Positions 3,232 to 18,486 of a stretch of 64,000 nucleotides of DNA are shown here, piece by piece; positions within the stretch are counted from its first letter, which is position 1, and each line of letters starts with the position of its first letter. Made by a program: the position numbers and the translations under genes. The notes beneath the pieces were generated by a model, which saw only the letters and a program-made list of their open reading frames with translations, was not told where the DNA came from and made no database searches. This DNA comes from Armatimonadota bacterium (GTDB taxonomy: Bacteria > Armatimonadota > Fimbriimonadia > Fimbriimonadales > GBS-DC): positions 1,284-65,283 of the forward strand of contig JBBIQK010000007.1 of the NCBI GenBank assembly GCA_037442365.1. The letters run 5' to 3'.

Positions 3232-4008
3232 ATGAGCTTGCGAACGCAGTTTCTGGCACTATTGAGCGCACTGGCGCTCACGAGCGCGGTTCACGCACAG
3301 TTGACAGACAAGGTGGAACGCGGCGGCGATTTCTCGATTCGCATCATCGACGGGAGTTATGTCCTCTCGGGCGCCCTGGGCGGCTCAGGCAGCTTCCGCT
3401 CCAGCGCGTACCGATTCCCCCTCCTGCCCAACGAGGGCTTGGACTGGCAACTGCGCGTGCGCGACCTGATTAACGCGATTGGTTCGGACTATATGCTCCG
3501 TTTCCACACCACGATTCTGCCCAACGGCGACATCCAGTGGGATATGGACGCCACGCCCAACGAATGCACCACCATTCGGCTGAGTGGTCAGGACTATCAG
3601 TTCCTGCTCACGCGCATCTCAGCGCGGTTCACCATGCGCCCCACGCCAATTGCGTGCCAGCCCGACCCGCATGCGGTACTCGGTCGCTCCGTGAGCGTGC
3701 AACTGGACGCCGTGGGCGGCGATGAGGCGAACTACCTGCACCTGGAGGGCTACTTCCTCGTCTGTCAGGAGAATGCGTCCTTCTTCACGCAGGGGGTGGT
3801 TTCTGGTCTGGTGGTGCGCGGCTACGGCGGCGGGCTGCCCAAGTCGCTGGGGAATGTGAACAACGACTGCATCGTGGACGACGCGGACCTGCTCGCCGTG
3901 CTGTTCAACTTCGGCGGGAGCGAGGCATCGACCGACACCAACGACGACGGCATCGTGGACGACGCCGATCTGCTCACGGTGCTGTTCAACTTCGGCACGG
4001 AGGGCTGA
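3232..4008 (+). CDS. secreted hypothetical protein with two C-terminal dockerin-like (EF-hand-type) repeats
   Basis: Signal peptide MSLRTQFLALLSALALTSAVHA. C-terminus NNDCIVDDADLLAVLFNFG .. DTNDDGIVDDADLLTVLFNFG. AGGAGA RBS before the ATG. Confidence 0.6.
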   Translation: MSLRTQFLALLSALALTSAVHAQLTDKVERGGDFSIRIIDGSYVLSGALGGSGSFRSSAYRFPLLPNEGLDWQLRVRDLINAIGSDYMLRFHTTILPNGDIQWDMDATPNECTTIRLSGQDYQFLLTRISARFTMRPTPIACQPDPHAVLGRSVSVQLDAVGGDEANYLHLEGYFLVCQENASFFTQGVVSGLVVRGYGGGLPKSLGNVNNDCIVDDADLLAVLFNFGGSEASTDTNDDGIVDDADLLTVLFNFGTEG

Positions 4009-4017
4009 GGATACACG

Positions 4018-4835
4018 ATGACTACACGGAAGTGCTTGCACCAGGGATTCACCCTCATCGAGCTGCTGGTCGTGATTGCGATTATCGCCATTCTGGCGGC
4101 GATTCTGTTTCCTGTGTTCGCGCAGGCGCGTGAGAAGGCGCGCCAGACGCAGTGCATCAGCAATCTGCGCAACTCGGCGACCGCCGCGCTGCTGTATGTG
4201 CAGGACTACGACGAGAAGTTCCCGATGCCGTTCTACTACACCATCGCGAACAACGCGCCCTGCGCTATGACGATGTTCACCATGATTGCGCCCTACCTCA
4301 AGAATCAAGAGGTGCTGCGCTGTCCTTCGGAGCCCGACGCCTACTGGAGGCAAGCTTCAGGGCGCTGGTGAGCGGCGGCGAGTGCGGCGACTTCACCAAA
4401 GCCAGCTACTCCTACAACTACTCCGTGTTCCGCACGGTGACCACCACACGCGATGTACTGAATCTGGCGGAAGTGCCGTTCCCTGCCGAGACCTCGATGA
4501 TTTTCGACGCGGACCTGATCCTGTTCGAGGGAACCTGTCGGAACGCGGTCGGCTTGCGGCAGGGAGATACGCCTGTGCGCCCGCGCCACAACGGGATGCT
4601 GAACGCCAACTATGTGGACGGGCATACGAAGGTAGTCAAAGCGGACTCGCGCGCGCCGCTCACGGACTGCACCTACACCATCCGCCGCGCCGTGAACCAG
4701 GACACCCAGCGCAGCCCGTTCTGCATCGGGTCGGGTCCCTACACGCGCCGATGCGACCAGCAGACGCCGCTGCCCTGCGCGACGGAACTGCGCGGAATCA
4801 TCGATCAGGACAGTCAGGGCTTGTGTCGGCGGTAG
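4018..4835 (+). pseudogene. prepilin-type N-terminal cleavage/methylation domain, H-X9-DG family protein, split by a frameshift near 4340-4370
   Basis: Frame 1 gives [38 protein letters not shown], then a stop at 4369-4371. The frame one base back continues [35 protein letters not shown] (the H-X9-DG motif) to 4835. Confidence 0.7.
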
Positions 4836-4887
4836 GGACGCGAACCCTTGTCTGAACCGAACAGCCACCTGCGGGCGCGGTTGGGGG

Positions 4888-7062
4888 CTAAAACTCGCTC
4901 CCAACTGCGCCTACGGGTTGACCCAGTTGCCCAAAGCCGAAGCGCGAGAAGCTCGGCAACGCCTTCAGGCGCACGAACACCTGCAGCCCCGTGTCGCGGC
5001 GGAAGCCGAACGGATTGTCGATATAGCGCACCTCCAGCTCGGCGCAGTGCAGGTCGTACACCCACAGCGCCTGCCGCGACTCAAACCGACTCAGATAGCC
5101 GTTGTATTGCGCGAGGAATGAGATTCGCGAGCGTCCCCACTTGAGGGCGTCCACGCGCAGGAACACGCTGCCCCAGCGGGCGCGTTCCGGGTCGTAGCGC
5201 GCCGCCAGCGCCAGCTGCGAGTCGCCGAACCGCCATAGCAGGTCGGTCTGCAGGCTGCGCCAGCGTGCCCGATTCGGGTCGTAGCGCAATTGCAATCGCC
5301 CGCGCAGCCAGTCGGCAGGCGCGTACTCCAGATTCAGGTTCAGCAGGCTCCACGGGTCGCGCCCGCTCTCCGACGCGAGCAGGTCGTAGCTGGTCTGTGC
5401 GCCGAGCGTCCAGCCGCCGCCGAAACTCAGGCGCAGCTCCCCGCTCAGCAGGTTATACACGCCTGTCCGATCCAGTCCCAGCGGGCTGTAGCCGTAGGGG
5501 CGCAGGTAGTTCCAGCGCAGGCTGAGGCTGGAGCGCGCGCTTAGCGGCGTGCGCTGCTCCAGCGCGGACTGCAACAGGTACTGCGCCGTGTCGTCGCTGT
5601 AGAAGGTCTGGCGAAAGCGATAGCTCCATGCAAGGCTGGAGCGGTTTTCCGCTTCGCGCGGGGGGCGTCCTGCGCGTCCCTGCCACTCGAATGCGTACCG
5701 CTCGCGCGCGAGACGCGTCTGGAAGCCCTCCGCGAAGCGTCCGATGCTCAAACGCAGTTGCGAGTCGGGCACGCCCAGCACACGCCCCGACGCCTGCAGG
5801 CTCAGTTCAGGCAGCCGCTCCAGCCCGCCGAACACGCTTGACTCGCCCACGGGCACGAACCGCTCGAAGTCCAGTTGCAGGCTTGCCTCGCGCGCCAGCC
5901 CGTAGCGCAGGTTCGCCCGCAGGTTCCACTGGCGGTTGCCCGTGCGCGTATCGTCGAACCGGTTCTCGAACTCCAGATACTCGCCCGACAGGTTGCTCTG
6001 CAGGCGTCCGATTCGGCGCGTGTCCTGCAGGGCAAGCGTGCGGTTGATGTTCTCGAACGCGCCCGTGCGGTTGCGGCTCTCGGCGAAGCTCAGCCCCGTC
6101 TGTCCCGATGGCGCGGGCAGCGTCCAGTCGGTGCGCAGGCTCCACGCCGTGTTGTCGCCGAACAGCAGGTAGCTGTTGCGTCGGTACTCGGCGTTCCAGC
6201 GGGTCTGGAGCGCGCCCAGCGGCTGCGCGTGCTGCCAGCGCCCCGTGAGCGAGTCGGCGCGCTGGCGCAGGTCGCGCAGCAGGTACAGGTTCAGGTCGCC
6301 CCGCGCGTACTGCTGCTGAAGGTTGATTCCCAGCCCACGCTTCTGCATGAGATCCAACCGCGCGCTGCCCACCGCGCCCTGCGCCAGCAGGTAGGCGAGC
6401 GCATAGCGGAGGTAGAAGCCCTCCTCTTCCGTGTAGCCTGCGTCGGGCAGGGGCGAACTGTCGCCCTCGCGCAGCGGCACAATCACATACGGCAGGCGCA
6501 GCACCGTGCGCCCCAGAATGCTCAGGCGCACCTCGCGCAGCACGGCGCGCGCGCCGGGCGTCGCCTCCAGCGTGCGTGCGCTCCAGTGAAAATGGGGATG
6601 CTCCAGCCCGCAGGTGGTCGCCGTGCAGGCTTCCGCATGGATGCGGTTCTCCTCGCCCTCGATGCGCGCTCCCTGCAGATGCAGGCTCTCCGAAAGGCGG
6701 TTCTCGGTGAAGGCGGGGGTGAGTTCCGCGCGCCCCTGCAAGAGCGTCCAGCGGCGTGTGCGCGTGTTCAGCGCCAGCGAGTCGCCCTGCGCCCGCAGCC
6801 GCTCGCTCGTCAGGCGCACCCCCTCAAAAAAACGGTACTCGGCGTCGCGCGTGCGCCCTTCAAACCGCGCGCTCTCCAGCAGGTACTCGCGCCAGCGGGC
6901 GGTGATCGATTCGCCCTGCGCCGTGTCCGACGCGCTATCGTAGCGGAACGCCTGCTGTGTTTCGAACTGGATGGGTTCTCCCTGTGGCTGCCCGAACGCG
7001 CAGGCGACGGCGACCTGCGCCGTCAGCAGCCCAATCCCGCGAATACCCCGATACGCCCGCAT
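4888..7062 (-). CDS. lptD: LptD/OstA-like outer-membrane LPS-assembly protein
   Basis: Signal peptide. OstA-like N-domain followed by TTCGLEHPHFHWSARTLE..LPYVIVPL, a long run of alternating beta-strand-like sequence, and a C-terminal aromatic residue (..GSEF). Confidence 0.6.
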   Translation of the reverse strand: MRAYRGIRGIGLLTAQVAVACAFGQPQGEPIQFETQQAFRYDSASDTAQGESITARWREYLLESARFEGRTRDAEYRFFEGVRLTSERLRAQGDSLALNTRTRRWTLLQGRAELTPAFTENRLSESLHLQGARIEGEENRIHAEACTATTCGLEHPHFHWSARTLEATPGARAVLREVRLSILGRTVLRLPYVIVPLREGDSSPLPDAGYTEEEGFYLRYALAYLLAQGAVGSARLDLMQKRGLGINLQQQYARGDLNLYLLRDLRQRADSLTGRWQHAQPLGALQTRWNAEYRRNSYLLFGDNTAWSLRTDWTLPAPSGQTGLSFAESRNRTGAFENINRTLALQDTRRIGRLQSNLSGEYLEFENRFDDTRTGNRQWNLRANLRYGLAREASLQLDFERFVPVGESSVFGGLERLPELSLQASGRVLGVPDSQLRLSIGRFAEGFQTRLARERYAFEWQGRAGRPPREAENRSSLAWSYRFRQTFYSDDTAQYLLQSALEQRTPLSARSSLSLRWNYLRPYGYSPLGLDRTGVYNLLSGELRLSFGGGWTLGAQTSYDLLASESGRDPWSLLNLNLEYAPADWLRGRLQLRYDPNRARWRSLQTDLLWRFGDSQLALAARYDPERARWGSVFLRVDALKWGRSRISFLAQYNGYLSRFESRQALWVYDLHCAELEVRYIDNPFGFRRDTGLQVFVRLKALPSFSRFGFGQLGQPVGAVGSEF

Positions 7063-7147
7063 CAGCCAATTGATAGACGCGCCGAATCGGGGAGAATATA
7101 CCTGATGGGAGGCTGGCGGTGGCGTGTGAAGGCTTTCAGTTCAGACC

Positions 7148-7175
7148 TTGACAGAATGCATTTGCGAGGTAGAAT
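7148..7175 (+). promoter_or_regulatory. sigma-70-type promoter of the STAND gene (-35 TTGACA, 16-nt spacer, -10 TAGAAT), 9 nt before the ATG
   Basis: TTGACA at 7148-7153, TAGAAT at 7170-7175, ATG at 7185. No Shine-Dalgarno sequence fits in between. Confidence 0.6.
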
Positions 7176-7184
7176 CCTGTTGCA

Positions 7185-10100
7185 ATGTTTGCTGGCGCTG
7201 GAAACTTTGTAAAGGACGCATGCGCGACTGCAGGCATGTCTCTGGGGAGTGTGCTGGGCGGACCCATCGGCGGCTTGGCTGGCGGGTTCATCGGCAGCGT
7301 GCTGGGGGAGATTGTTGTGCAATCGGTAGCAGACCTCTCCCGGGAGAAGCTTCAGGACTCGTTGCGCCGCTTCCGTCCCTCTCGAAACGCCGATATAGAG
7401 CGCGCTATTCTCGAGGCGCTTCGCGGCGCACTCCAGCACTCTCGCGACGCGCTGCGCCAGCAACCGGGCGACGCAACCAGCCTCCCGCGGGGGCTTTCTA
7501 CTGAAGAGGAAGCGCTCTTCAAAGCGTGGGACAGCAAACTTCAAGCCGCCCTCAAGGGCGCCGATGCACAGGTACACGAAGCGGTGGGCGAACTCTCTCC
7601 CGACGCGCCCGCGCTCGCAGCGTCCCCCGACGAGACGCTTGCCGACTGGCTACTGCGCTTGCTCCAGCGGCTGGCAGAGCGCGAGACGCTCCCTGAACCG
7701 CTGCGCGAGTTCCTTCAAGCCCGACTGCCCCAGCGCTTTCGCCACGAGTTTGCCCAGCTGCTTAAAGACCCACGGCATCAACGGGCGTGGATTGCCTTCC
7801 AGAAGCAGATGCTGGACGCAATTTTACAGGCAATCCACGAAATGCAAACGCTCACGCCCGAAATCGCGCAGGGGGTTCAGCTCCTGCAGGAGCGCCAGAT
7901 GCAGCTCACACAGGCGGTCGCCGAATGGCTCGAATCGGAACCTGACCGCTGGCAGGAACGCGCTCACGAGCTGGCGCAAACCATCACGGAACCCATCCTG
8001 CACGCCATCCACGACACCCGTGAGCGCGTGGAGTTTATCGTCAACCTGCTGGGCGAGAAGCACCGCTACCGCTTGCTGCACGAGGGCACGCTCCGATTCC
8101 TGCAATCTTACGCACAGGGAGTCTTCGTGGGACGGCAGGAGATACTGGCGAATCTGGAGGCGTTTCTGACAACGCGCTCCAGCGGGCTGGCGGTGATACA
8201 CGCGCCCGCAGGCTACGGCAAAACCCGCCTGATGATGAAACTGCTGAACCGACTGCAAGCGCGTGGCGACGCCGATGTCGCGTTCCACTTCTTCTCCACA
8301 CGCGAGGAGCTGGGCGGGCTGGGCACGCGCACGGAATACGCCTACGCACACCTGCTGCTGCAACTGGGGCACATCACCAACACAAAGGTTTATCTGCCCG
8401 ATGGCAACCCCGACGAACTCCGCGCCCAGCTGCTGTATGAGATTCGCGATTTGAAGCCCCCGCGCGGGCGCGTCGTGCTGCTGATAGACGCGCTGGACGA
8501 GGCGGACGCGCCTGTGATGCACCTACCGCTGCCCGAAACTTTGCCCGACGGCGTATTCGTGGTGGTGAGCGCGCGCTGGGACAATCGCCCGGAACCGCCT
8601 CCCTACCTTGAGGCGTGGCTCGCACGCGCCGACGCCCACTACCCACTGGACGCCCTGAGCGAAAGCGACCTGCGCGACTGGGTGCGCAACATCGAGCCGC
8701 TCCGCGCCTGTGCCGACGACCCCGACTTCATCCGCCAGCTCCACCAGCGCACCGAAGGGCTGACGCTCTACGCCCGCTACCTGCTGGACGAGCTGAGCCA
8801 GTCCCCAAACCCGAAGCAGGCGCTCCAGAACGCGCCGATGGGCATTCAGAAATACATCGAGCATCAGATTCGCCAGCTGGCGTCGCATGTGTCCAACGCG
8901 CAGGGGATACGGCGGATGTTCGCCCTGCTGACCGTCGTCAAGGCGCCTCTGCCTCAGAGCGATTTGGAAACCCTCTGCGAGGTCTCCGTCTGGGATTTGC
9001 AGAACCTGCCCCAGCCTGTGCGCCGCTGGTTCCTCTGCTCCAAGGCGGGCTGGCAGTTTGCACACCCCCTGCTGGCGATAGAGTTTCGGAATGCGCTGGG
9101 TAGAGAACCCCTGCTGATGGAACAGAAACTGATAGACTACTCTGCCCGCTGGAAGGAACACAAGAGCCACTATGCCCTGCGCCACTACGCCGCGCACCTG
9201 ATGGAGCGCGCCCAGCACGAGAGCGCGGCTGCCGAAGCGCTCTACGCGCTGGCGACGGATGACACCTTCTTGCAGGCGCAGCGTGAAGCCTTCCCCACCG
9301 AGCCAGACCTGCCCCTGAAAGCGATTCAGCAGGCGATACAGGTCGCCAGCCAGCGCGACGAAGCCGTGATATTGGCGCATCTGATGCTGCGCCACGCCGC
9401 GATTGCAGACGAGATACGCTTCGCCCAGTCGCCCTACGAGATCTGGAGCGAAAAGGGTGACTTGCACCGTGCTCTCAGGGTTGCCAACCTGCATAATCCA
9501 CGAATGCGCGCTCTTCACTGCCTTCTGTTAGCGGCGGCACTCTCGGAACCTGAGCATCGCAAATTTATCATTAGAAATCTGTGCGATTCAAACATCCCAT
9601 TTTACAAAAGAAGATGGCAAGAGCGATTTATTCGCATCATAGAGCAGATAATTGGAAACGAAATACAAAATGAGTGCCCTGAACTGATAACAAAAATGCT
9701 CCCGAACGGACAGTCGCCTGTACAGCCTCCACTACCCGAAGAATCTGCACAAAACACTGAAGGGATTACACAGTCCGTGGTTGACGCCTCTGATGGGTAT
9801 CAACAGATAAATAAGCATTTGGATGACGCTCAGAGATTCCTGCATAACCACAGTCTCAATGATGCCCTGAACAGCCTCAACAGGGCACTAAAAATTGTCC
9901 CTGAAATTAGTTTCAAGCTTTCTTCTTTTTGGACAAAGATAGTGATTAGTATAGCACGGGCGCCATCGCGACGCCAAAAATTAAAAATTCTTAACGAATT
10001 GGTAAGAGAAGCTCAGCAAGTTCCCGAACTCGAGTGGCAAGCGCGCATACTGGCAGCGATTGCTGAAGCAAGGGCAAACATAATATTCCCGAGAAAAGAC

Positions 10101-10811
10101 AATCAAATTTTCATGCAAGCATTTCGGTGTACCTCAGAGATTCGCGACCCGTTGGAGAAAGCCTGGGCGTTACGAACAGTGGTTAACACCGTTCCACGAA
10201 TACGACAGGTCAATTTGCGGAAACAAGTCTTACAACAAGCGGAAGAAATCGCGACTGCGATGGAGGACTCGGAAGGGAAGCTGGAAGCGCTGCGTGCGAT
10301 TCTCGTAGTACTGGCACAGATAGGTGAAGTAAATCGCGCGAAAAATGTTTTGAAACGGGCAAAGAATGTTGCAAGAGTATTACAAAACCCAGAAGAAAAA
10401 GAAAATGCATTAATAGCAATCGAATTGGCATTGGACGACAAATTCGATGATTCGCTAAACATTATACAAGGTTTAAAAGATATTTACTGGAAAAACTTAA
10501 GCTTGTGGACGATTGCTACCTTCTTTGCTACACAGCAGAAGTTTTCCGATGCTGTGTTTACGATTGAACAGCTTTATTCTGATCAACATGAAGTTTTTCC
10601 CAAGATTGCGAATGATATGCTTGAAGCGGGCGATCGGCGCTATTTCAAGCAGCTCCTGCTCCCGTGCGCCTACTTCAGAGTGTCTGCGCTGGAGATGTGC
10701 GCCGCGCTGATCCGCGCCTATCCCGAACAGGCGGAGGCGATTGGCGAAGTGGTACTGGAGTTCGTCGGCGCGCAGGGGGCTGACACGGAAGCGCCCGAAC
10801 CCGCGCCGTAG
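7185..10811 (+). CDS. STAND/NACHT-like P-loop NTPase with N-terminal glycine-zipper segment and C-terminal helical (TPR/HEAT-like) repeats
   Basis: N-terminus GSVLGGPIGGLAGGFIGSVLG. FVGRQEIL..VIHAPAGYGKTRL is the Walker A (nt 8203-8226). VVLLIDALDEAD is the Walker B (nt 8472-8507). The C-terminal ~500 aa is repetitive alpha-helical sequence. Confidence 0.7.
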   Translation: MFAGAGNFVKDACATAGMSLGSVLGGPIGGLAGGFIGSVLGEIVVQSVADLSREKLQDSLRRFRPSRNADIERAILEALRGALQHSRDALRQQPGDATSLPRGLSTEEEALFKAWDSKLQAALKGADAQVHEAVGELSPDAPALAASPDETLADWLLRLLQRLAERETLPEPLREFLQARLPQRFRHEFAQLLKDPRHQRAWIAFQKQMLDAILQAIHEMQTLTPEIAQGVQLLQERQMQLTQAVAEWLESEPDRWQERAHELAQTITEPILHAIHDTRERVEFIVNLLGEKHRYRLLHEGTLRFLQSYAQGVFVGRQEILANLEAFLTTRSSGLAVIHAPAGYGKTRLMMKLLNRLQARGDADVAFHFFSTREELGGLGTRTEYAYAHLLLQLGHITNTKVYLPDGNPDELRAQLLYEIRDLKPPRGRVVLLIDALDEADAPVMHLPLPETLPDGVFVVVSARWDNRPEPPPYLEAWLARADAHYPLDALSESDLRDWVRNIEPLRACADDPDFIRQLHQRTEGLTLYARYLLDELSQSPNPKQALQNAPMGIQKYIEHQIRQLASHVSNAQGIRRMFALLTVVKAPLPQSDLETLCEVSVWDLQNLPQPVRRWFLCSKAGWQFAHPLLAIEFRNALGREPLLMEQKLIDYSARWKEHKSHYALRHYAAHLMERAQHESAAAEALYALATDDTFLQAQREAFPTEPDLPLKAIQQAIQVASQRDEAVILAHLMLRHAAIADEIRFAQSPYEIWSEKGDLHRALRVANLHNPRMRALHCLLLAAALSEPEHRKFIIRNLCDSNIPFYKRRWQERFIRIIEQIIGNEIQNECPELITKMLPNGQSPVQPPLPEESAQNTEGITQSVVDASDGYQQINKHLDDAQRFLHNHSLNDALNSLNRALKIVPEISFKLSSFWTKIVISIARAPSRRQKLKILNELVREAQQVPELEWQARILAAIAEARANIIFPRKDNQIFMQAFRCTSEIRDPLEKAWALRTVVNTVPRIRQVNLRKQVLQQAEEIATAMEDSEGKLEALRAILVVLAQIGEVNRAKNVLKRAKNVARVLQNPEEKENALIAIELALDDKFDDSLNIIQGLKDIYWKNLSLWTIATFFATQQKFSDAVFTIEQLYSDQHEVFPKIANDMLEAGDRRYFKQLLLPCAYFRVSALEMCAALIRAYPEQAEAIGEVVLEFVGAQGADTEAPEPAP

Positions 10812-10871
10812 CTGGTCGCGTGCCTGGGCGCGCCTTGCTTACTGCATGAGCCCTATGAGTATCCACCCTAC

Positions 10872-11963
10872 CTACCCCCAGTACCGCTCCCAGAAACTGA
10901 TTTGCTGCTGGGCGAAGCGGCGGGCGTAGTCCAGGTCGGCGGGGTCAATCGCCGGCGGCGCGTGGTCGGTCAGGGTCGGGATGCGGTCGTGCGCCTCGAA
11001 AGTCTCAGGCGTCGCGTCGGGGAGGTCTACGCCCACAAGCGTCGCAATCGCAAGCGTCCACATACGCGGCACGGTCGTCAGATTGTAGCCCCCGCCGCCC
11101 AGCGCAACCATCGGGATACCCAGCGACTTCGCCCACTGAACGGCGCGCAGCCAGCCCTGCGCCGTCAGACACAGGTGTCCCAGGGGGTCCAGAGAGTGCG
11201 GGTCGCAGCCCATCTGCAACACCAGCGCATGCGGCTGGAACCGTTCGAAGGCGCGGGGTACGACCTGCTCAAACGCCTCCCACCAGATGGCATCGTCCGT
11301 GTAGGGCGCGAGCGGGATGTTGACCGAGGTCCCTTCCGCGTCGCCCTCGCCCAGCTCGTTCACCGCGCCTGTGCCCGGAAAGAGCCACTGTCCGCCCTCG
11401 TGAATCGAGACGGTCAGCACGCTGGGGTCGCGGTAGAAAATCCACTGCACGCCGTCGCCGTGATGCAGGTCGATGTCCAGGTACGCCACGCGCTCGAACC
11501 GTTCGCGCAGAATGTGAACTGCAATCGCGGGGTCGTTGAAGATACAAAACCCGCTGGCGCGGTTGGGCAGCGCATGGTGCAGCCCGCCCGTGATGTTAAT
11601 TGCCAGCGGCGCGCCGTCGCGCACGGCGCAGGCGGCGGCGACCGTCGCGCGGGTGTACGCCAGCGCCGCCTCCCACATCCCCACAAACGGCGGGTTGTCG
11701 CCGTAAGGCGAGAAGCCCCAGCGATGTGCGTCCATCAACGGCGCGCCCGCGCTGAGCTGGCGCACCACCTCGATATATTCAGGCGTATGCACGCGGCGCA
11801 ACGCCGACTCGTCGATTTCAGGCGGCGTCTGCCAGTCCAGACGGTCGCTCAGCCCATAGGCGTCCATCAGGGCGCGCAACAACACCAGTCGCTGCGGCTT
11901 CAGCGGATGCGACTCGCTGAACTGGTACTGCTCAATCGCCGAATCGTAAAAAAACGGCGTCAT
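10872..11963 (-). CDS. histone deacetylase-family protein (AcuC/acetoin utilisation-type deacetylase)
   Basis: GGLHHA, DIDLHHGDGVQ and GGGGYN motifs of class I HDAC/AcuC. ATG at 11963 sits 7 nt after a TATACT box. Confidence 0.8.
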   Translation of the reverse strand: MTPFFYDSAIEQYQFSESHPLKPQRLVLLRALMDAYGLSDRLDWQTPPEIDESALRRVHTPEYIEVVRQLSAGAPLMDAHRWGFSPYGDNPPFVGMWEAALAYTRATVAAACAVRDGAPLAINITGGLHHALPNRASGFCIFNDPAIAVHILRERFERVAYLDIDLHHGDGVQWIFYRDPSVLTVSIHEGGQWLFPGTGAVNELGEGDAEGTSVNIPLAPYTDDAIWWEAFEQVVPRAFERFQPHALVLQMGCDPHSLDPLGHLCLTAQGWLRAVQWAKSLGIPMVALGGGGYNLTTVPRMWTLAIATLVGVDLPDATPETFEAHDRIPTLTDHAPPAIDPADLDYARRFAQQQISFWERYWG

Positions 11964-11970
11964 CACAGGC

Positions 11971-11976
11971 AGTATA
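11971..11976 (-). promoter_or_regulatory. -10 box (GGTATACT), 7 nt upstream of the HDAC-family ATG
   Basis: Reverse complement reads caGGTATACTgcctgtgATG. Confidence 0.45.
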
Positions 11977-11996
11977 CCTGCAGGGGCGCGTGCAGG

Positions 11997-12851
11997 CTAC
12001 GACTGGATCGCCGCCACCTCCAGCCACTCGATCCCGTCCCAGCCGTGAAACCGCTTCTGCATCACCTCGAGGGCTTCGGGGTTGTTGTCCACCAGAATGA
12101 ACCGCCTGCCCAGCTCCAGCGCGGCGACGCCCGTTGTGCCGCTGCCGGCGAAAAAGTCCAGCACCAGATGCTCCGGGTGCGACGAGGCGCGGATAATTCG
12201 GCGTAGAATGCCCAGCGGCTTCTGAGTCGGGTAGCCCATGCGCTCCCTGCTGTTGGTCGGCACAATCGTATGCCACCACACATCGGTCGGCAGCTTGCCC
12301 CGTCGCGCCTTCTCTTCGCCCACCAGCGCAGGCGCCATGTACGGCACACGGTCAATCGCGTCTGGATTGAACACATAGCGGTCGGGGGCTTTCACATAGA
12401 GCAGGATGGTGTCGTGCTTGGGGGGCCATTTGCGGCGGGGGCGTCCGCCATAGTCATATGCCCAGATAATCTCGTTCAAAAAACATGCCCGCCCGAAAAT
12501 CGCGTCCAATAGCACTTTACAGTAATGCGCCTCGCGGTAGTCGATGTGAAAGTAGAGGCTGCCGTGCGGCGCAAGCACCCGATACGCCTCCTGCAGGCGC
12601 GGCTCCAGAAAAGCGAGGTAGTCGTCGAAAATATCGATGAAGCTGCGCGAGCCGAGCGTGAGCGTGCGGTAGCGGTTGCCCCCAAAGCCCACCCGATCGC
12701 CCGACTCGGAGCGCACCGTGCGCAACGCGGTGTAGCGCTGCTGCTTGCCCGTGTTGAAGGGCGGGTCGATGTAAATCAAATCCACCGATTCGGTCGGCAG
12801 GGTCTGCAGCACATGCAAGTTGTCCCCGAAGTAGACGCGCCCACGCCACAT
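11997..12851 (-). CDS. beta-class DNA methyltransferase (N6-adenine or N4-cytosine)
   Basis: Motif IV IYIDPPFNTG lies near the N-terminus. Motif I VLDFFAGSGTTGVAA lies near the C-terminus. Confidence 0.8.
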   Translation of the reverse strand: MWRGRVYFGDNLHVLQTLPTESVDLIYIDPPFNTGKQQRYTALRTVRSESGDRVGFGGNRYRTLTLGSRSFIDIFDDYLAFLEPRLQEAYRVLAPHGSLYFHIDYREAHYCKVLLDAIFGRACFLNEIIWAYDYGGRPRRKWPPKHDTILLYVKAPDRYVFNPDAIDRVPYMAPALVGEEKARRGKLPTDVWWHTIVPTNSRERMGYPTQKPLGILRRIIRASSHPEHLVLDFFAGSGTTGVAALELGRRFILVDNNPEALEVMQKRFHGWDGIEWLEVAAIQS

Positions 12852-12878
12852 CGCGGCAGAGGATACCCACTCGCGCGG

Positions 12879-13694
12879 CTAATTGTTCGGCTGAATCGTC
12901 ACCTTGCGGGCGTAGTCGTTGCCCTCCTCGTCGCGGGTGCGGTGAATCGTCGCGCGGGCAGGCGGCTTGATTTGTTCCACCTTCACGGACTTGCCCCTGA
13001 AGGTGAACTCGGTGTTCTCATCGTAGCGGATGTCGCGCACATCGCCCGCGCGCGTGAGGACCCTGAGAATCTTTTTCTGGCGGTCGATGCCCTGAATCGT
13101 GCCCTGCAGCGACGGGAGCGTGCGCTCGCGTCCAATCTGGGCGTCCTTTTCGGTGTTGCTGACCGACAGGAGCATCGTGTCGAGGTTCGACAGCAGGCGC
13201 GGCGCGAGATAGAGCGTCTCGCCGACGACGAAGTCCTCCAGCGTCGCGGGCTTGCCGTCGCGCTCGAATCGGGTTTTGGGAGTGAATTTGTAGGCGAATC
13301 GGCTTTTGTCGGGCAGCTCGATGAGCAGGTAGTTGTCCTCCACGCCGACGAGCGCGCCCCTGACGATGCCGCGGCGCACCTTCTCCAGCCATTTCCATGT
13401 GTCGGGGTCTGCCATCTCGCGCACGACGGGGCGCACCTGCACACCGACGCTGACCCGCGCCATCACCTGCTTGCCCTCCATCTGCCGAAACGCCTCGATG
13501 TCGGCAGGCTGCTTGCCCATCCACAGGCGCGGCTTCTTGTGCAGGGTCGCGTTCATATCGGGCTTGCCCGCCCGCTTGAGGACAATCGCGCCGCCTTCGG
13601 GGTCGAACTTCGCCAGCGTCGCCAGAAAAATCTCCGTTTCCGCCCAACCAGCGAGAACCGCCATGCAGAACGCCACACACGCCAGCATGCGCAT
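12879..13694 (-). CDS. secreted hypothetical protein
   Basis: MRMLACVAFCMAVLAGWA signal peptide with GAGGTG upstream. No recognisable family. Start is uncertain (ATGs at 13700, 13694 and 13688). Confidence 0.5.
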   Translation of the reverse strand: MRMLACVAFCMAVLAGWAETEIFLATLAKFDPEGGAIVLKRAGKPDMNATLHKKPRLWMGKQPADIEAFRQMEGKQVMARVSVGVQVRPVVREMADPDTWKWLEKVRRGIVRGALVGVEDNYLLIELPDKSRFAYKFTPKTRFERDGKPATLEDFVVGETLYLAPRLLSNLDTMLLSVSNTEKDAQIGRERTLPSLQGTIQGIDRQKKILRVLTRAGDVRDIRYDENTEFTFRGKSVKVEQIKPPARATIHRTRDEEGNDYARKVTIQPNN

Positions 13695-13753
13695 ACCCAT
13701 CACCTCGCTGGCGGACGATTCGCGCCCTCCGCGCGGTTTCCTGCCCTGTGAGG

Positions 13754-13759
13754 TATAAT
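13754..13759 (+). promoter_or_regulatory. -10 box (GGTATAAT), 8 nt upstream of ATG 13768
   Basis: Sequence gaGGTATAATctttctggATG. Confidence 0.45.
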
Positions 13760-13767
13760 CTTTCTGG

Positions 13768-14688
13768 ATGAGCCGACACGAAAAACCCACCAGCCGACGC
13801 GACTTCCTGCGCGAGGGGTTGCGCTCGCTGGTGAACGCAGGCTTTGGGGGCGTCTTTGAGAAGCTGGAGCGGGTAGGCGAGCTGATGGAGCGGGGCGAGC
13901 CGAAACCCGCGCCGCTGATGCCCGTTCTCAGCTGCGAAAGCCGCGCGTTGCACCCCCTGCTGGAGTCGGGGCAACTCAGCCTCGAAACCTGCGGCGCGAT
14001 GCTGAACGAGCTGGATATTCAGGGCGTGAGCCTGAGCGACCGCCACATCAGCAGCCTCCATCCCCGTGCGCTGGAACACCTGCGCGAGGGCTTCCACCGC
14101 CACGCGATTGCCATCACAGGCGTGATGGTCTCGGAGCCTGTGAACCTGAACGACGAGCCGAGCCTGAGCCGACGCCTGGACGAAACGATTGAACGCCTGC
14201 AGGCGGCGGCGATTCTGCAAGCCCCGCTGATTCGGCTGCACCTGAGCGGCGAGCGCGACGACGAGCTGTTCGAACGCGGCGCGCTGTTCCTGCAGCGACT
14301 GCTGCCTGAAGCGCGGCGACGGCGCGTACGCATCGTTATCGAGAACCGCGAGGGCGTCGGACGACGCCCTGAGCTGCTGGTGAACCTGATACGGGCGACC
14401 GACCTGCGCTGGATTGGCGCCTGCTACGACTTCGGACACGGCGCGCCCGAACGATACTACGACGCCGCGCGCATCCTCGCGCCCTACGCCTTCCATGTGC
14501 ATGCCAAAAGCCGCGCCTTCGACCCGCGCGGCGAAGAGACAACGATTGAGTACGGGCGTGTGCTGAGCATCCTGCGCCTTGCCAGCTATGTCGGCGCGCT
14601 GTCAATTGAGTATCTCGGCGAGGACGACCCGCTGGAAGGCGTGCGACGAACGCGCGATTTAATCCGACGCCACTGGCGCGCCTACTGA
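13768..14688 (+). CDS. xylose-isomerase-like TIM-barrel protein (sugar phosphate isomerase/epimerase family) with Tat-type signal
   Basis: The N-terminal SRRDFLREGL twin-arginine motif is clear. The family assignment is from general sequence character only. Confidence 0.5.
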   Translation: MSRHEKPTSRRDFLREGLRSLVNAGFGGVFEKLERVGELMERGEPKPAPLMPVLSCESRALHPLLESGQLSLETCGAMLNELDIQGVSLSDRHISSLHPRALEHLREGFHRHAIAITGVMVSEPVNLNDEPSLSRRLDETIERLQAAAILQAPLIRLHLSGERDDELFERGALFLQRLLPEARRRRVRIVIENREGVGRRPELLVNLIRATDLRWIGACYDFGHGAPERYYDAARILAPYAFHVHAKSRAFDPRGEETTIEYGRVLSILRLASYVGALSIEYLGEDDPLEGVRRTRDLIRRHWRAY

Positions 14689-14690
14689 CG

Positions 14691-16076
14691 ATGGAGATTG
14701 TGGAGCGCGTGCGCGCGACCCTCCGCGAGCGACGCCTGCTGCCCCCAGATGGCGGTCTTGTGATTGTCGGCTATTCGGGCGGGGCAGACTCCACCGCGCT
14801 GCTGCACCTGCTGACGCGCCTGCAGGACGAGTTCCGCATCCACCTCCACGCGGCGCACCTGCATCACGGCATGCGCCCCGAAGCGGACGACGATGTGCGC
14901 GTGTGCCAGTCCGTGTGCGAGCAACTGCAGGTTCCCCTGCACATTGAGCGCGTCGATGTGCCCGCGCGGGCGCAGGCGGAGCGCATGTCGCTGGAAGAGG
15001 CGGGGCGCTACGCCCGCTACGAGTTCTTCGAGCGGCTGGCGCACGCGCTGGACGCCGTCGCCGTCGCGCTGGCGCACACCCGCGATGACCAGATAGAGAC
15101 CCTCCTGATTAACCTGCTGCGCGGCACGGGACCGCGCGGGCTGTGCGGGATGCCCTACCAGCGCGACCGCATCATCCGCCCGCTGCTCGACGCGACGCGC
15201 GCCCAGACGCACACCTACTGCGCGGCGCACGGGCTGCCGACCGTGTTCGACCGTACGAACCTGGACCCGCATCAGCTGCGCCGTCGCGTGCGCATGGAGC
15301 TGCTGCCCTTGATGCGCGACCTCTCCCCTGCCGTCGACCGCCATCTGCTGCGCCTTGCAGACATTCTGGCGCAGGAGGAGGCGTGGTGGGCGACCGCGCT
15401 GGAGTGCGGAACCATAGCTGCTGAAGCTTCGCTTCAGCACTCCACAATCGCGCGGGATGCCTTCACTCAACTTCACCCCGCGCTGCAGCGGCGCGTGTTG
15501 CGCGAGTGGTTGCGCAGGCGGCTGGGCGCGTTGAACCTCCCGCCGTATGAGATTCTGGAGGGCGTCCGCCGCGCCACGCTGGACGGCAGGCGCACTTCGT
15601 GGCAACTCACAGACGCCCTGCGCCTGACCACCGACGAGACCGCACTGCGCCTGCACGAAGCATCGCCCCGCCCTGAACCCTATGAGTACCCCGTTGCGCT
15701 GGAGACGCCCGTGCTGATTCCGCAGGCAGGCGCATGGCTGGAGGCGCGCCTGCAAAACGCCCCGCCCCCATCGCTTGAGCCAGCGTCCCACGAGGCGTAC
15801 CTCGACGCCGACGCCGTGCAGGGGCAGCTGTGCGTGCGCAACGGACGCGCAGGCGACCGATTCCAGCCGCTGGGCATGCACGCGCCCAGAAAACTGAGCG
15901 ACATCTTCATCGACCGCAAAATCCCCCGCGCTGAACGCTGGCGACTGCCCCTGCTGTGCGACGCGGCGGGTATTCTCTGGATCCCGGGCTACACGATTGC
16001 CGCGCGCGCCCGTATCACGCCCGACACCCGACGCGTGCTGCATGTCGCCCTGCGCCGAAACGACACCGAAGCGTAA
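14691..16076 (+). CDS. tilS: tRNA(Ile)-lysidine synthase
   Basis: PP-loop VGYSGGADSTALLHLL, an HxxHxxR region, and a C-terminal domain with GxxKLSDxFIDxKIP. Confidence 0.9.
   Translation: MEIVERVRATLRERRLLPPDGGLVIVGYSGGADSTALLHLLTRLQDEFRIHLHAAHLHHGMRPEADDDVRVCQSVCEQLQVPLHIERVDVPARAQAERMSLEEAGRYARYEFFERLAHALDAVAVALAHTRDDQIETLLINLLRGTGPRGLCGMPYQRDRIIRPLLDATRAQTHTYCAAHGLPTVFDRTNLDPHQLRRRVRMELLPLMRDLSPAVDRHLLRLADILAQEEAWWATALECGTIAAEASLQHSTIARDAFTQLHPALQRRVLREWLRRRLGALNLPPYEILEGVRRATLDGRRTSWQLTDALRLTTDETALRLHEASPRPEPYEYPVALETPVLIPQAGAWLEARLQNAPPPSLEPASHEAYLDADAVQGQLCVRNGRAGDRFQPLGMHAPRKLSDIFIDRKIPRAERWRLPLLCDAAGILWIPGYTIAARARITPDTRRVLHVALRRNDTEA
15401..15443 (+). repeat. degenerate in-frame copy (copy D) of the 52-nt double-hairpin element, inside tilS
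   Basis: GGAGTGCGGAAccatagctGCTGAAGCttcGCTTCAGCACTCC. It shares both ends and the second hairpin with the copy at 35755-35806 and is translated as ECGTIAAEASLQHS. Confidence 0.7.
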
Positions 16077-16088
16077 GCGTCAGACGAT

Positions 16089-18485: not shown

Positions 18486-18486
18486 G

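What the first reader, a model, noticed from the sequence alone, without database searches (positions are those of the whole stretch)
7185..10811. Solitary 1208-aa STAND-type NTPase with a glycine-zipper N-terminus: NLR-like conflict/defence candidate
The protein has three parts. Residues ~17-45 are a GxxxG ladder (GSVLGGPIGGLAGGFIGSVLG) of the membrane-inserting glycine-zipper type. About 290 helical residues follow, then a P-loop core with FVGRQEIL..APAGYGKT and hhhhDALDEAD, and then about 500 residues of helical repeats. An effector-like N-terminus, a STAND switch and a repeat sensor is the logic of bacterial NLR-like antiviral proteins (Avs/bNACHT and related conflict systems). I do not recognise this particular N-terminal module from described families. 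The gene stands alone with its own canonical promoter and is convergent with unrelated genes.
Basis: partly seen in the sequence, partly recalled or inferred. Interest (0 to 1): 0.75.

Follow-up and report, generated by a model that had tools for sequence, protein, structure and literature searches.

The report
Bacterial NLR-like protein with swapped sensor
This is a real, intact, single-gene bacterial relative of animal and plant NLR immune receptors: it has an undescribed glycine-rich N-terminal domain that may attack the membrane, and a sensor segment that has been wholesale replaced by foreign DNA between near-identical strains, as expected for a gene in an arms race, although its function is untested.

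Summary
Window 7185-10811 (+) is an intact 1208-aa ORF with a near-consensus promoter and a leaderless start. It has a GxxxG ladder (aa 17-45), an all-helical N-terminal module (aa 1-313) and a NACHT-clade NTPase (Walker A 340-347, NACHT-type Walker B DALDE). A helical spine and degenerate TPR-like repeats follow.

The NLR-like reading is supported, and two new facts extend it.

1. The N-terminal module is an unannotated family. There is no Pfam model and no PDB or viral fold match, even with a confident model. About 340 protein clusters carry it, almost always at the N-terminus. In 104 members scanned it is fused only to STAND NTPases of several clades. This is how a mobile effector module behaves.

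2. The sensor region (9447-10593, aa 755-1136) is a replaced cassette. A sister strain is 95% identical on both sides but has 3.4 kb of unalignable sequence there. Cassette GC3 is 0.43, against 0.74-0.78 in the rest of the gene. A second strain pair shows the same pattern.

The gene is not syntenic across lineages. Some relatives sit beside defence genes, and some alleles are frameshifted or IS-truncated.

The best reading is a solitary abortive-infection-type NLR with a membrane-targeting N-terminus. The mechanism is inferred, not shown.

The parts
7148..7175 (+). Sigma-70-type promoter: TTGACA, 16-nt spacer, TAGAAT. The -10 hexamer ends 9 nt before the ATG, so the mRNA is leaderless or nearly so.
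   Evidence: 11 of 12 matches; 4 sites found against 1.3 expected in the region. Conserved in the sister strain L008.
7185..10811 (+). Complete CDS of the 1208-aa NLR-like STAND protein, stop codon included.
   Evidence: Homologues share the architecture.
7185..7337 (+). Aa 1-51: predicted helix-Pro-helix hairpin carrying the GxxxG ladder (aa 17-45, nt 7233-7319). It is the most hydrophobic stretch of the protein.
   Evidence: maximum Kyte-Doolittle 19-residue mean is 1.58 at aa 27-45, and there are six GxxxGxxxG matches. AF2 gives helices 6-23 and 29-48 with pLDDT below 50, not docked on the core. Sub-threshold Pfam hits to the glycine-zipper families C19orf12 and DUF456.
7185..8123 (+). Aa 1-313: all-alpha N-terminal module of an unannotated family. 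It has a confident helical-bundle core at aa ~65-215. Conserved motifs are RNADIERA (aa 67-74, nt 7383-7406; 'NHDLQRA' in relatives) and LKDPRHQRAWIAFQ (aa 193-206, nt 7761-7802). Long helices (aa ~220-313) lead into the NTPase.
   Evidence: Profile search: 340 hits, almost all N-terminal. Motifs. AF2 with a 35-sequence alignment: pLDDT 75 overall, 87-97 in the core. No Pfam, PDB or BFVD match.
8124..8699 (+). Aa 314-~505: NACHT-clade STAND NTPase. Walker A APAGYGKT is aa 340-347 (nt 8202-8225, K346). Walker B LLIDALDEAD is aa 432-441 (nt 8478-8507) and contains the NACHT signature D-A-L-D-E. The sensor-1-like motif VVVSAR is aa 459-464 (nt 8559-8576).
   Evidence: Pfam NPHP3_N 1e-8, AAA_16 7e-8, NACHT 2.3e-5. 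Motif positions. D[GAS]hDE is the NACHT-specific signature according to bioRxiv 10.1101/2022.07.19.500537.
8700..9446 (+). Aa ~506-754: conserved helical region after the NTPase (winged-helix and spine), 74-88% identical to the closest homologue P0002.
   Evidence: Sliding identity. Matches the mid-region of the PADLOC STAND_TPR model in relatives. The domain boundaries are inferred.
9447..10592 (+). Aa 755-1136: hypervariable, compositionally foreign sensor cassette of degenerate family-type (~38-aa, TPR-like) helical repeats.
   Evidence: GC is 0.42-0.47 here against 0.62-0.69 around it. GC3 is 0.43 against 0.78 and 0.74 in the flanking parts of the gene. The segment is unalignable with sister strain L008, which is 95% identical on both sides. 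It is 23-31% identical to the repeat arrays of relatives. It has 4-5 weak repeat units. No close relative exists among 5.8 billion proteins.
10593..10808 (+). Aa 1137-1208: conserved C-terminal cap (GDRRYFKQLLLPCAYF...RAYPEQAEAIG). It is the downstream anchor of the cassette.
   Evidence: Identity to P0002 and P0028 returns to about 80% here. DNA identity with L008 resumes at 10594. The cap is recognisable in Fervidibacter, Thermoflexus, P0019 and P0021.

Best explanation
The gene encodes a solitary NLR-like immune or conflict sensor of the NACHT clade of STAND NTPases, in a Fimbriimonadales (Armatimonadota) bacterium.

Shown:
- The tripartite architecture.
- NACHT-type NTP-binding motifs.
- An N-terminal module that is a mobile domain found on NACHT, NB-ARC, nSTAND1 and nSTAND5 NTPases.
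- A repeat region that is exchanged as a cassette between otherwise near-identical strains, here by DNA of foreign composition.

Inferred mechanism:
1. In the resting state the repeat solenoid and the conserved C-terminal cap hold the NTPase closed.
2. The variable repeats bind a trigger. This is most likely a phage protein, or a perturbation caused by a phage or other invader.
3. Binding permits nucleotide-dependent oligomerisation of the NACHT domains.
4. Oligomerisation clusters the N-terminal modules.
5. Their glycine-zipper helices are released and insert into the cytoplasmic membrane.
6. Membrane integrity is lost and the infected cell dies or arrests (abortive infection).

This parallels HeLo/Bell, MLKL and plant CC-resistosome N-termini. 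The cassette, flanked by conserved spine and cap sequences, is replaced by homologous recombination to change specificity.

The confidence given is for the whole chain. I put about 0.9 on a NACHT-type NLR-like protein with a swapped sensor, about 0.65 on a conflict or defence role, and about 0.4 on the N-module being a membrane-disrupting executioner.
For: Architecture and motifs.

N-module modularity:
- 340 representative clusters carry it, nearly always at residue ~1.
- In 104 members scanned the partners are NACHT, NPHP3_N, NB-ARC, nSTAND1, nSTAND5 and AAA_16, with TPR, WD40, LRR or FGE-sulfatase C-termini. No enzymatic partners were seen.
- The same NOD, spine and cap chassis carries other N-termini in relatives: NNH1 in P0021, DUF4062 in P0022/23, an unknown domain in P0019, and WD40 in place of TPR in P0016.

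Membrane-type N-terminus:
- GxxxG ladder and the hydrophobicity peak.
- Weak hits only to glycine-zipper membrane families.
- The hairpin is not packed in the AF2 model.
- The Gly-zipper subgroup is homologous to a subgroup starting MEPIS.../GGIIGNRxD (hhalign probability 96.5%, E 7e-10).
- bioRxiv 10.1101/2024.11.07.622273 reports a MEPIS N-terminal helix in Bell/Hell domains and in the antiphage NLRs Avs2 and bNACHT02/11/23. It also reports that a Bell-type domain acts in abortive infection with membrane alteration.

Arms-race signature:
- Cassette replacement between the window and L008, and between L002 and L005.
- GC3 of 0.43 against 0.78.
- Protein identity collapses only in the repeats.
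- Kibby et al. note rapid diversification C-terminal of bacterial NACHT modules.

Accessory-gene behaviour:
- Different neighbourhoods in each lineage.
- One allele is frameshifted and one is IS-truncated.

Defence neighbours: an Hma-type methylase, DUF499 ATPase and PglZ with an embedded HEC-01 pair lie next to the Fervidibacter homologue. AbiEii-like and Uma2 genes are nearby in L002/L005. cas4-cas1-cas2 lies next to a family member in L012.
Against: - The target gets no significant hit to any PADLOC defence model. Relatives hit only a generic STAND_TPR model.
- The window locus is flanked by housekeeping genes (ArgB, TopA, an outer-membrane protein, a deacetylase, TilS) plus one DNA methyltransferase. 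That arrangement is conserved in the sister strain, so it is not a defence island.
- Hydrophobicity of the zipper is borderline for a transmembrane helix (1.58).
- The confident model of the N-module matches no known pore-former or HeLo, MLKL, CC or Babybell structure (best Foldseek E 0.64).
- The link to the published MEPIS motif rests on sequence resemblance described in a preprint, not on an alignment made here.
- Most STAND clades (391 of 589) are not classed as defence-associated in PMC13581612.
- All sequences are metagenome assemblies. A chimeric assembly of the cassette cannot be excluded without reads, although four independent assemblies show different AT-shifted cassettes.
- No experiment of any kind exists.
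Confidence: 0.45

Rival explanations
1. It is an NLR-like sensor, but the N-terminal module is not the executioner. Either the glycine-rich hairpin is a constitutive membrane anchor, so the sensor surveys the inner face of the membrane. Or the helical bundle is an adaptor that recruits or activates a separately encoded effector or signalling partner.
For: The conserved core (aa 65-215, with the NHDLQRA and RAWIAFQ motifs) is a large soluble-looking bundle with no resemblance to pore-formers. Two helices of about 20 residues could form a re-entrant or transmembrane hairpin that leaves the NTPase cytoplasmic. Kibby et al. list adaptor-type N-termini as common on bacterial NACHT proteins.
Against: No conserved neighbouring partner gene exists across loci. 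The module was never found on enzymatic effector proteins or as a genuine stand-alone protein, which is the hallmark of EAD or Death-like adaptors. The short hits are fragments of frameshifted NLR genes. Helix 1 of the hairpin contains K10 and D11 and is weakly hydrophobic.
Confidence: 0.25
2. It is a non-immune STAND scaffold or regulator, by analogy with NPHP3, TEP1 or MalT-type proteins. It would serve a cellular process such as envelope biogenesis or signalling, and the repeat variability would reflect relaxed constraint on a scaffold.
For: The best Pfam hit is NPHP3_N. The neighbours in the window are housekeeping genes, and the locus is conserved in the sister strain. Most STAND clades are not defence-associated. 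There is no PADLOC hit.
Against: There is no HTH or other output domain. No operon partner or synteny is conserved across lineages. Replacement of the sensor by DNA with GC3 0.43, between strains 95% identical on both flanks, is not what relaxed constraint produces. Alleles are frequently broken. The N-module is combined with four STAND clades and several sensor types.
Confidence: 0.12
3. It is a self/non-self (kin or allorecognition) receptor rather than an antiviral one, as in fungal HET-type NLRs. In this reading the polymorphic cassette recognises variable proteins of conspecific cells or of mobile elements other than phages.
For: Cassette polymorphism occurs between co-occurring strains of one population: P0004, P0006, P0007, P0008 and P0009 come from one metagenome. 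The architecture parallels fungal HeLo/NACHT/repeat NLRs.
Against: There is no evidence of cell-cell cytoplasmic exchange in these bacteria. The protein is cytoplasmic with no export signal. Bacterial NACHT proteins tested so far are antiphage.
Confidence: 0.08
4. It is an amyloid-signalling NLR. The glycine-rich N-terminus would be a BASS-type prion-forming motif that templates a matching motif on a separately encoded Bell-type effector.
For: BASS motifs sit at the N-termini of bacterial NACHT and NB-ARC NLRs and are G/N/Q-rich.
Against: No ORF within about 20 kb carries a matching motif, and no small effector gene is adjacent. The Gly-rich segment is followed by a 260-aa conserved domain rather than directly by the NTPase. 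It is predicted helical, not beta.
Confidence: 0.02

Closest known systems
Bacterial NACHT proteins (bNACHT; Kibby et al., bioRxiv 10.1101/2022.07.19.500537) and the wider set of defence-associated STAND/Avs families (Lee et al. 2026, PMC13581612)
   Same: It is a single-gene protein with an N-terminal effector-position domain, a central NACHT module with the D[GAS]hDE Walker B signature, and a C-terminal repeat sensor. The region C-terminal of the NACHT module diversifies fast. The N-terminal domain differs between close NOD relatives.
   Different: The target matches no bNACHT or Avs HMM in PADLOC. Its N-terminal domain is not among the listed enzymatic or adaptor effectors and has no Pfam model. 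Its trigger and phenotype are unknown. It comes from Armatimonadota and Chloroflexota of hot-spring-type metagenomes rather than from enterobacteria.
Bell / Babybell / HeLo / Hell / MLKL-4HB / plant CC membrane-targeting death domains (bioRxiv 10.1101/2020.01.06.895854 and 10.1101/2024.11.07.622273)
   Same: It is an all-alpha domain at the N-terminus of an NLR, beginning with a hydrophobic, glycine-containing helix. Relatives of the target's module begin with the MEPIS-like motif reported for this superfamily. The proposed logic is the same: oligomerisation exposes the N-terminal helix to the membrane.
   Different: The module is about 300 aa, against 80-140 aa. It has a two-helix GxxxG hairpin rather than a single short helix. 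There is no acidic residue at position 2-3 in the target (MFAG...). Foldseek finds no similarity to any solved member. No Pfam HeLo, HeLo-like or SesA hit reaches significance. No amyloid partner is present.
Glycine-zipper membrane motifs (Pfam C19orf12-like, DUF456, 'Glycine zipper 2TM')
   Same: A (G/A/S)xxxG ladder lies on a hydrophobic helix. Weak profile hits fall exactly on aa 9-47.
   Different: All hits are below the gathering thresholds. Those families are small constitutive membrane proteins, not N-termini of NTPases.
Fungal and other NLRs with polymorphic repeat sensors (HET-E/D-type WD40 or TPR NLRs)
   Same: A conserved NOD is combined with a repeat domain that is highly polymorphic within populations. 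Dyrka et al. suggested that bacterial NLR repeats may diversify in a similar way.
   Different: Here the variation is a whole-cassette replacement by DNA of different composition, between conserved spine and cap anchors. It is not shuffling of near-identical repeat units.

Membership tests
STAND NTPase, NACHT clade | P-loop NTPase with Walker A GxxxxGK[ST] | tested here: met
   APAGYGKT at aa 340-347. G343, G345, K346 and T347 are invariant in close homologues.
STAND NTPase, NACHT clade | Walker B with the NACHT-specific D[GAS]hDE signature (definition from bioRxiv 10.1101/2022.07.19.500537) | tested here: met
   LLIDALDEAD at aa 432-441 contains D435-A-L-D-E439.
STAND NTPase, NACHT clade | Profile match to NACHT-family models above the curated threshold | tested here: met
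   NPHP3_N (a NACHT-type model) scores 36.0 bits against a gathering score of 24.8, and AAA_16 scores 33.6 against 32.6. The PF05729 NACHT model itself scores 24.7 against 26.7, just below threshold. Several homologues carry precomputed PF05729 hits.
STAND NTPase, NACHT clade | Winged-helix and helical extension after the NTPase, followed by superstructure-forming repeats | tested here: inconclusive
   A conserved helical region spans aa ~506-754. Homologues have TPR_12, TPR_30 and TPR_7 hits, and P0016 has WD40. The target's own repeats give no Pfam TPR hit and only 4-5 weak family-type units. No full-length structure was predicted.
Known antiphage STAND families (Avs1-5, bNACHT01/09 and others in PADLOC-DB 2.0) | Significant match to the family HMM | tested here: not met
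   The best PADLOC hit is mad8 at E 1.3e-3, over the P-loop only. Relatives P0010, P0013 and P0048 match only the generic STAND_TPR model, plus Avs1b weakly. Avs6-21 and later families are not in this library.
Bell / HeLo-like membrane-targeting domain | N-terminal hydrophobic alpha-helix at the extreme N-terminus of an all-alpha domain | tested here: met
   Helices span aa 6-23 and 29-48, and the hydrophobicity maximum is at aa 27-45.
Bell / HeLo-like membrane-targeting domain | Conserved N-terminal signature (acidic residue at position 2-3; 'MEPIS'-type motif) | tested here: inconclusive
   The target starts MFAGAG, with no acidic residue at position 2-3. Thirteen of 144 family members start M[ED][PL], and 19 carry GNRxD. 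That subgroup is homologous to the target's subgroup (hhalign probability 96.5%).
Bell / HeLo-like membrane-targeting domain | Compact 4-5-helix bundle fold (80-140 aa) similar to HET-S HeLo, MLKL 4HB or Babybell | tested here: not met
   Foldseek of the pLDDT-75 model against 350,542 PDB chains gives a best E of 0.64 and TM of 0.2 or less. No HeLo, MLKL, CC or Bab entry is listed. The module is about 300 aa. Foldseek is weak on all-alpha bundles, so remote similarity is not excluded.
Amyloid-signalling (BASS) NLR/effector gene pair | Short motif at the NLR N-terminus matched by the C-terminus of an adjacent effector protein | tested here: not met
   No similar motif occurs in any six-frame segment of window 1-22000. 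The adjacent genes are an outer-membrane protein and a deacetylase.
Transcription-factor STANDs (MalT/LuxR, SARP/AfsR, GutR) | HTH or other DNA-binding domain fused to the NTPase | tested here: not met
   No DNA-binding domain appears in the Pfam or NCBIfam scans even at E up to 1.
[quoted passage not shown] | Profile or profile-profile similarity to NNH1 | tested here: not met
   No NNH1 hit for eight diverse N-modules at E up to 0.1. hhalign of three N-module alignments against the NNH1 domain of P0021 gives a probability of 0.5% or less.
DGR-diversified antigen-receptor-type STAND | Nearby reverse transcriptase and template repeat, with adenine-specific substitutions in the variable region | tested here: not met
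   No reverse transcriptase is among the ORFs or Pfam hits within about 7 kb on either side. Alleles differ by complete loss of alignability and by length (1.1 kb against 3.4 kb), not by point substitutions. A template-repeat search was not run.
Defence-island gene | Recurrent proximity to known defence systems | tested here: inconclusive
   Defence genes are adjacent in L003/L004 (Hma-type system plus HEC-01) and L012 (cas4-cas1-cas2). They are nearby in L002/L005 (AbiEii-like, Uma2) and L011 (antitoxin, helicases). There are none in the window/L008, L001 or L006 apart from one methyltransferase. The sample is too small for statistics.

The most novel reading that the evidence does not exclude
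The N-terminal ~300-aa module would be a new family of NLR-coupled cell-death executioner domains: a glycine-zipper hairpin on a helical bundle with a fold not represented in the PDB. It would have been recruited independently by NACHT, NB-ARC, nSTAND1 and nSTAND5 receptors across several bacterial phyla. In this lineage, specificity would be renewed by importing whole sensor cassettes from distantly related, lower-GC genomes. Recombination would occur between two conserved anchors, the spine and the C-terminal cap. That would make it a bacterial counterpart of modular antigen-receptor exchange.
Probability: 0.3. Interest if true: 0.75.

Novelty: new variant of a known kind. Interest (0 to 1): 0.6.

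Why it matters
Bacterial NLR-like STAND proteins are now recognised as a major arm of prokaryotic innate immunity and as the evolutionary source of eukaryotic NLRs. Most of their clades and many of their N-terminal output domains remain uncharacterised.

This gene offers three things.

1. A compact, single-gene example from a poorly studied thermophilic lineage (Armatimonadota and Chloroflexota).
2. A sizeable domain family (about 340 clusters at 50% identity) with no Pfam model. It sits only at the effector position of four STAND clades and has no structural precedent. If it is a membrane-disrupting module, it widens the set of death domains linked to NLRs beyond HeLo/Bell, gasdermin and enzymatic effectors.
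3. An unusually clean natural experiment in sensor exchange. Two strains are 95% identical on both sides of the cassette, whose synonymous-site composition betrays import. This makes it directly testable that specificity resides in the cassette and that the conserved cap and spine act as recombination anchors.

If it proves not to be a defence gene, it is still a well-delimited new domain family worth a Pfam entry.

Tried and rejected
- PADLOC, NCBIfam and Pfam scans of the whole protein found no defence family and no N-terminal or TPR family for the target.
- The first AF2 model, built from 8 sequences, was too poor (pLDDT 59.6), and its Foldseek search gave nothing. It was superseded by the 35-sequence model.
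- Foldseek of the better model against the PDB and BFVD gave no match at E of 0.001 or better.
- Sequence and profile searches against PDB chains gave nothing.
- A search for the donor of the cassette found only P0028, the sister-strain allele, which matches mainly through the cap. Cassettes of the collected homologues are only 23-31% identical. The donor is unknown.
- The genome-contig scan for taxonomic distribution failed. The third was swamped by the P-loop pattern and returned two irrelevant loci, L009 and L010.
- The cluster look-up for organism names of N-module proteins returned almost no names. The last word-indexed search with the N-module profile returned only 12 hits.
- Apparent stand-alone N-module proteins turned out to be pieces of frameshifted NLR genes, so they are not evidence for an adaptor or effector pair.
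- No conserved upstream partner gene exists: there were no BLAST hits among the upstream genes of six loci.
- Literature searches for 'glycine zipper' or 'Gly-zipper' together with NACHT or STAND returned nothing.
- Relationship to NNH1 was rejected.
- The BASS amyloid-pair idea was rejected.
- A DGR explanation of the variability was rejected on the nature of the differences and the absence of a reverse transcriptase nearby.

Full report
**1. The observation**

Window 7185-10811 (+) is an uninterrupted 1208-codon ORF.
- a GxxxG ladder at aa 17-45, with six overlapping GxxxGxxxG matches and none elsewhere in the protein;
- FVGRQEIL at aa 314;
- Walker A APAGYGKT at aa 340-347;
- Walker B LLIDALDEAD at aa 432-441;
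- a sensor-1-like VVVSAR at aa 459-464.

A TTGACA-16 nt-TAGAAT promoter (11 of 12 consensus positions) lies at 7148-7175. Its -10 element ends 9 nt before the ATG, so the transcript is probably leaderless.

The database gene call for this protein starts at M17 (P0001). Residues 1-16 nevertheless align with the N-termini of homologues. The promoter, the ATG and these codons are also conserved in a sister strain. I therefore take M1 as the start.

The gene is divergent from the upstream outer-membrane-protein-like gene (4888-7062, minus strand). It is convergent with the downstream histone-deacetylase-family gene (10872-11966, minus strand).

**2. The NTPase core**

Pfam places aa 314-501 in the STAND/NACHT group:
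- NPHP3_N, 36 bits (gathering score 24.8);
- AAA_16, 33.6 bits (32.6);
- AAA_22, 32.6 bits (27);
- NACHT, 24.7 bits (26.7), just below threshold.

The Walker B segment D-A-L-D-E fits D[GAS]hDE. Kibby et al. give this signature as the one that separates NACHT from other STANDs. No HTH or other output domain is found, and no PADLOC defence model is matched. No PDB chain is a detectable sequence relative.

**3. Homologues and where they sit**

Only 27 proteins among 5.8 billion pass E of 1e-3 or better. They come from JGI metagenomes and from MAGs named Fimbriimonadales, Fervidibacter (both Armatimonadota), Thermoflexus and Chloroflexota.

They share one architecture:
- a hydrophobic, glycine-rich N-terminus;
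- about 300 helical residues;
- the NTPase and a helical spine;
- an array of ~38-aa repeats scored as TPR_12 or TPR_30;
- a conserved C-terminal cap (LLPxxxY...RAYPxQAxxI).

Neighbourhoods differ from lineage to lineage:
- lipid A genes and MTHFR in L001;
- SHMT, Uma2, an AbiEii-like gene and ArgG in L002/L005;
- SelB and LysW in Thermoflexus L006;
- carbamoyl-phosphate synthase and an IS that truncates the gene in L007.

In Fervidibacter sacchari the gene lies 336 bp upstream of a recognised defence island. The island has an Hma-type DUF1156 methylase, a DUF499 ATPase and PglZ, with an embedded HEC-01 ATPase/DUF4276 pair. No upstream or downstream partner is conserved across loci, so 'solitary' is correct.

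**4. The window's own lineage and the cassette**

Searching with the C-terminal third found one meaningful hit, P0028. Its contig, a Fimbriimonadales MAG (L008), is collinear with the window: outer-membrane protein, NLR, deacetylase, methyltransferase, TIM-barrel protein, TilS and ECF sigma factor.

At DNA level the two are 95.1% identical over window 3619-9446 and again over 10594-18809. Between these blocks, the window's 1,147 bp (9447-10593) and L008's 3,356 bp do not align at all.

This interval is also a compositional trough. GC is 0.42-0.47, against 0.62-0.69 around it. The shift is at synonymous sites:
- GC3 in the cassette: 0.43;
- GC3 in the 5' part and the cap of the same gene: 0.78 and 0.74;
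- GC3 in five neighbouring genes: 0.82-0.87.

Amino-acid composition alone cannot explain this. The segment looks imported.

The same thing has happened independently elsewhere. L002 and L005, two strains from one metagenome, are 96.9% identical through the first ~898 codons. They are then unalignable for about 1.3 kb, and 94.6% identical again from about 100 nt before the stop. At protein level, identity in 50-residue windows falls from 96-100% to about 20-30% only in the repeats. In all four alleles the cassette has a lower GC3 than the rest of its gene.

The target's cassette is still of the family type. It is 23-31% identical to the repeat arrays of relatives and keeps 4-5 weak repeat units. 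It has no close relative in the database.

Alleles decay. L008's is split by a frameshift into 1436 + 468 aa. L007's is cut by a transposase.

One caveat applies. All of these are metagenome assemblies, and I could not check read support across the junctions.

**5. The N-terminal module**

A profile of aa 1-313 from eight homologues was scored against 1.84 billion representative proteins. It found 340 proteins at E of 1e-3 or better and 41 at 1e-10 or better. The match nearly always starts within the first 40 residues of the hit.

Recurrent features:
- a Gly/Ala-rich hydrophobic N-terminal helix or hairpin;
- a strongly conserved N-H-D-L-Q-R-A-type motif (RNADIERA, aa 67-74, in the target; found in 85 of 144 members by a loose pattern);
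- a later LKDPxHQRAWIAFQ motif.

Pfam scans of 104 members show the module fused to NACHT, NPHP3_N, NB-ARC, nSTAND1, nSTAND5 and AAA_16 NTPases. Their C-termini are TPR, WD40, LRR or FGE-sulfatase. No enzymatic partners appeared.

Short 'stand-alone' hits on long contigs proved to be pieces of frameshifted NLR genes. One lies directly after cas4-cas1-cas2 and another beside an antitoxin and helicases.

Conversely, proteins sharing the target's NOD, spine and cap carry other N-termini: NNH1 in P0021, DUF4062 in P0022/23 and an unknown domain in P0019. P0016 keeps the N-module but has WD40 repeats. This is the combinatorial behaviour of an NLR output domain.

No Pfam model covers the module in eight diverse members. 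Only sub-threshold hits to glycine-zipper membrane families fall on the hairpin. The module is unrelated to NNH1.

With a 35-sequence alignment AF2 gives mean pLDDT 75. The helical bundle at aa ~65-215 scores 87-97 and is followed by long helices. The hairpin (helices 6-23 and 29-48) stays below 50 and is not docked on the core.

Foldseek finds nothing at E of 0.001 or better. The best E is 0.64 in the PDB and 0.29 in BFVD. On present evidence the fold has no solved counterpart.

**6. Link to known death domains**

Dyrka et al. described Bell as a ~100-aa helical bundle with a hydrophobic N-terminal helix. It occurs mostly in small proteins paired with NLRs through amyloid motifs, and 'in more rare instances' sits at the N-terminus of NLRs.

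A 2024 preprint shows that a Bell-type domain (Babybell) acts in abortive infection with membrane alteration. It also reports that an N-terminal 'MEPIS' motif is shared with Avs2 and bNACHT02/11/23.

In my family, 13 of 144 members begin M[ED][PL] (for example MEPISFLISSIIGGIIGNRSD) and 19 carry GNRxD. The Thermoflexus homologues of the target are of this type.

A profile-profile comparison was built without mixing the groups. It supports homology between the target's Gly-zipper subgroup and this subgroup (hhalign probability 96.5%, E 7e-10, over target aa 33-213).

This is a lead towards the HeLo/Bell superfamily, not a membership:
- the module is three times larger;
- the target lacks the acidic residue at position 2-3;
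- no fold similarity was found;
- I could not align the published sequences.

The alternative of an amyloid-signalling pair is rejected, because no flanking ORF has a matching motif.

**7. Most likely mechanism**

Steps (a) and (d) are shown. Steps (b) and (c) are inferred from the established behaviour of STAND/NLR proteins and of HeLo/Bell/CC domains.

(a) The protein is a NACHT-type switch flanked by a variable repeat sensor and a mobile N-terminal module.

(b) Ligand binding by the repeats releases autoinhibition and drives NTP-dependent oligomerisation.

(c) Clustering of the N-modules exposes the glycine-zipper helices. They insert into the inner membrane and collapse it, aborting infection. 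The conserved cap may close the solenoid onto the NOD.

(d) Specificity is renewed by cassette replacement between the conserved spine and cap.

Points against this reading:
- no hit to known defence HMMs;
- a housekeeping neighbourhood in the window;
- borderline hydrophobicity, 1.58;
- no structural similarity to pore-formers;
- most STAND clades are not classed as defensive.

The rivals are an anchor or adaptor role for the N-module, a non-immune scaffold, allorecognition, and amyloid signalling. They are weighed in their own sections.

**8. Verdict**

The protein is best filed as a new variant of a known kind: a bacterial NACHT-type NLR-like protein whose output domain belongs to an undescribed family, and whose sensor shows a clean, compositionally marked cassette swap. 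I score interest at 0.6. The class is now well populated, with at least 90 defence-associated STAND families in the 2026 survey. The N-module family and the cassette exchange are nevertheless specific, testable and not described in the literature I could search.

Noticed in passing
window 7148-7235: The mRNA is probably leaderless. The -10 hexamer ends 9 nt before the ATG at 7185, with no Shine-Dalgarno sequence. The public gene call (P0001, 1191 aa) instead starts at the internal ATG 7233 (M17), so it loses 16 conserved residues.
   Followed up: yes
window 11997-12851 (-): An N6/N4 DNA methyltransferase (Pfam N6_N4_Mtase, 2e-49) lies one gene downstream of the NLR gene, with no recognisable restriction partner next to it. 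It is conserved at the same place in sister strain L008, so it looks like an orphan methylase rather than part of a mobile island.
   Followed up: partly
L008 3622-9407: The sister-strain allele of the NLR gene is about 1,900 aa long and is split into 1436 + 468 aa ORFs in different frames. This is either a frameshift pseudogene or an assembly error inside the repeats. Its cassette is three times longer than the window's.
   Followed up: partly
L007 10001-13236: This homologue (P0003, 834 aa) ends where a DDE transposase / DUF4096 IS element begins, so the allele has been truncated by an insertion sequence within the repeat region.
   Followed up: no
L003 15328-24992 (Fervidibacter sacchari CP130454): A defence island lies immediately downstream of the homologue. 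It has a split DUF1156/HmaB-like methylase, an HEC-01A/B pair (AAA_15 ATPase plus DUF4276), an HmaC/DUF499 ATPase and PglZ.
   Followed up: partly
L012 780-7907: A fragmented gene of the N-module family, seen as a string of short ORFs, starts 446 bp after a cas4-cas1-cas2 adaptation module. L013 holds two fragmented NLR genes in tandem.
   Followed up: no
window 7185-9446 versus neighbouring genes: Even the conserved 5' part of the NLR gene has a lower GC3 (0.78) than five neighbouring genes (0.82-0.87). In all four alleles examined the cassette is AT-shifted relative to its own gene. This points to a systematic bias in where cassettes come from or how they evolve.
   Followed up: partly
window 3232-4008 (+) and L001 8776-9627 (-): Two otherwise different secreted proteins near NLR homologues end in the same dockerin-like tandem motif (DDADLLAVLFNFG, twice). 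No Pfam hit was obtained for the window protein.
   Followed up: no
P0019 (1560 aa, Logan assembly): This protein has the same NOD, spine, repeats and cap as the target, but a different ~330-aa N-terminal domain (MPNFTTLRDRDAWNTFRGYVYQVH...) with no Pfam match. It is another uncharacterised output domain on this chassis.
   Followed up: no
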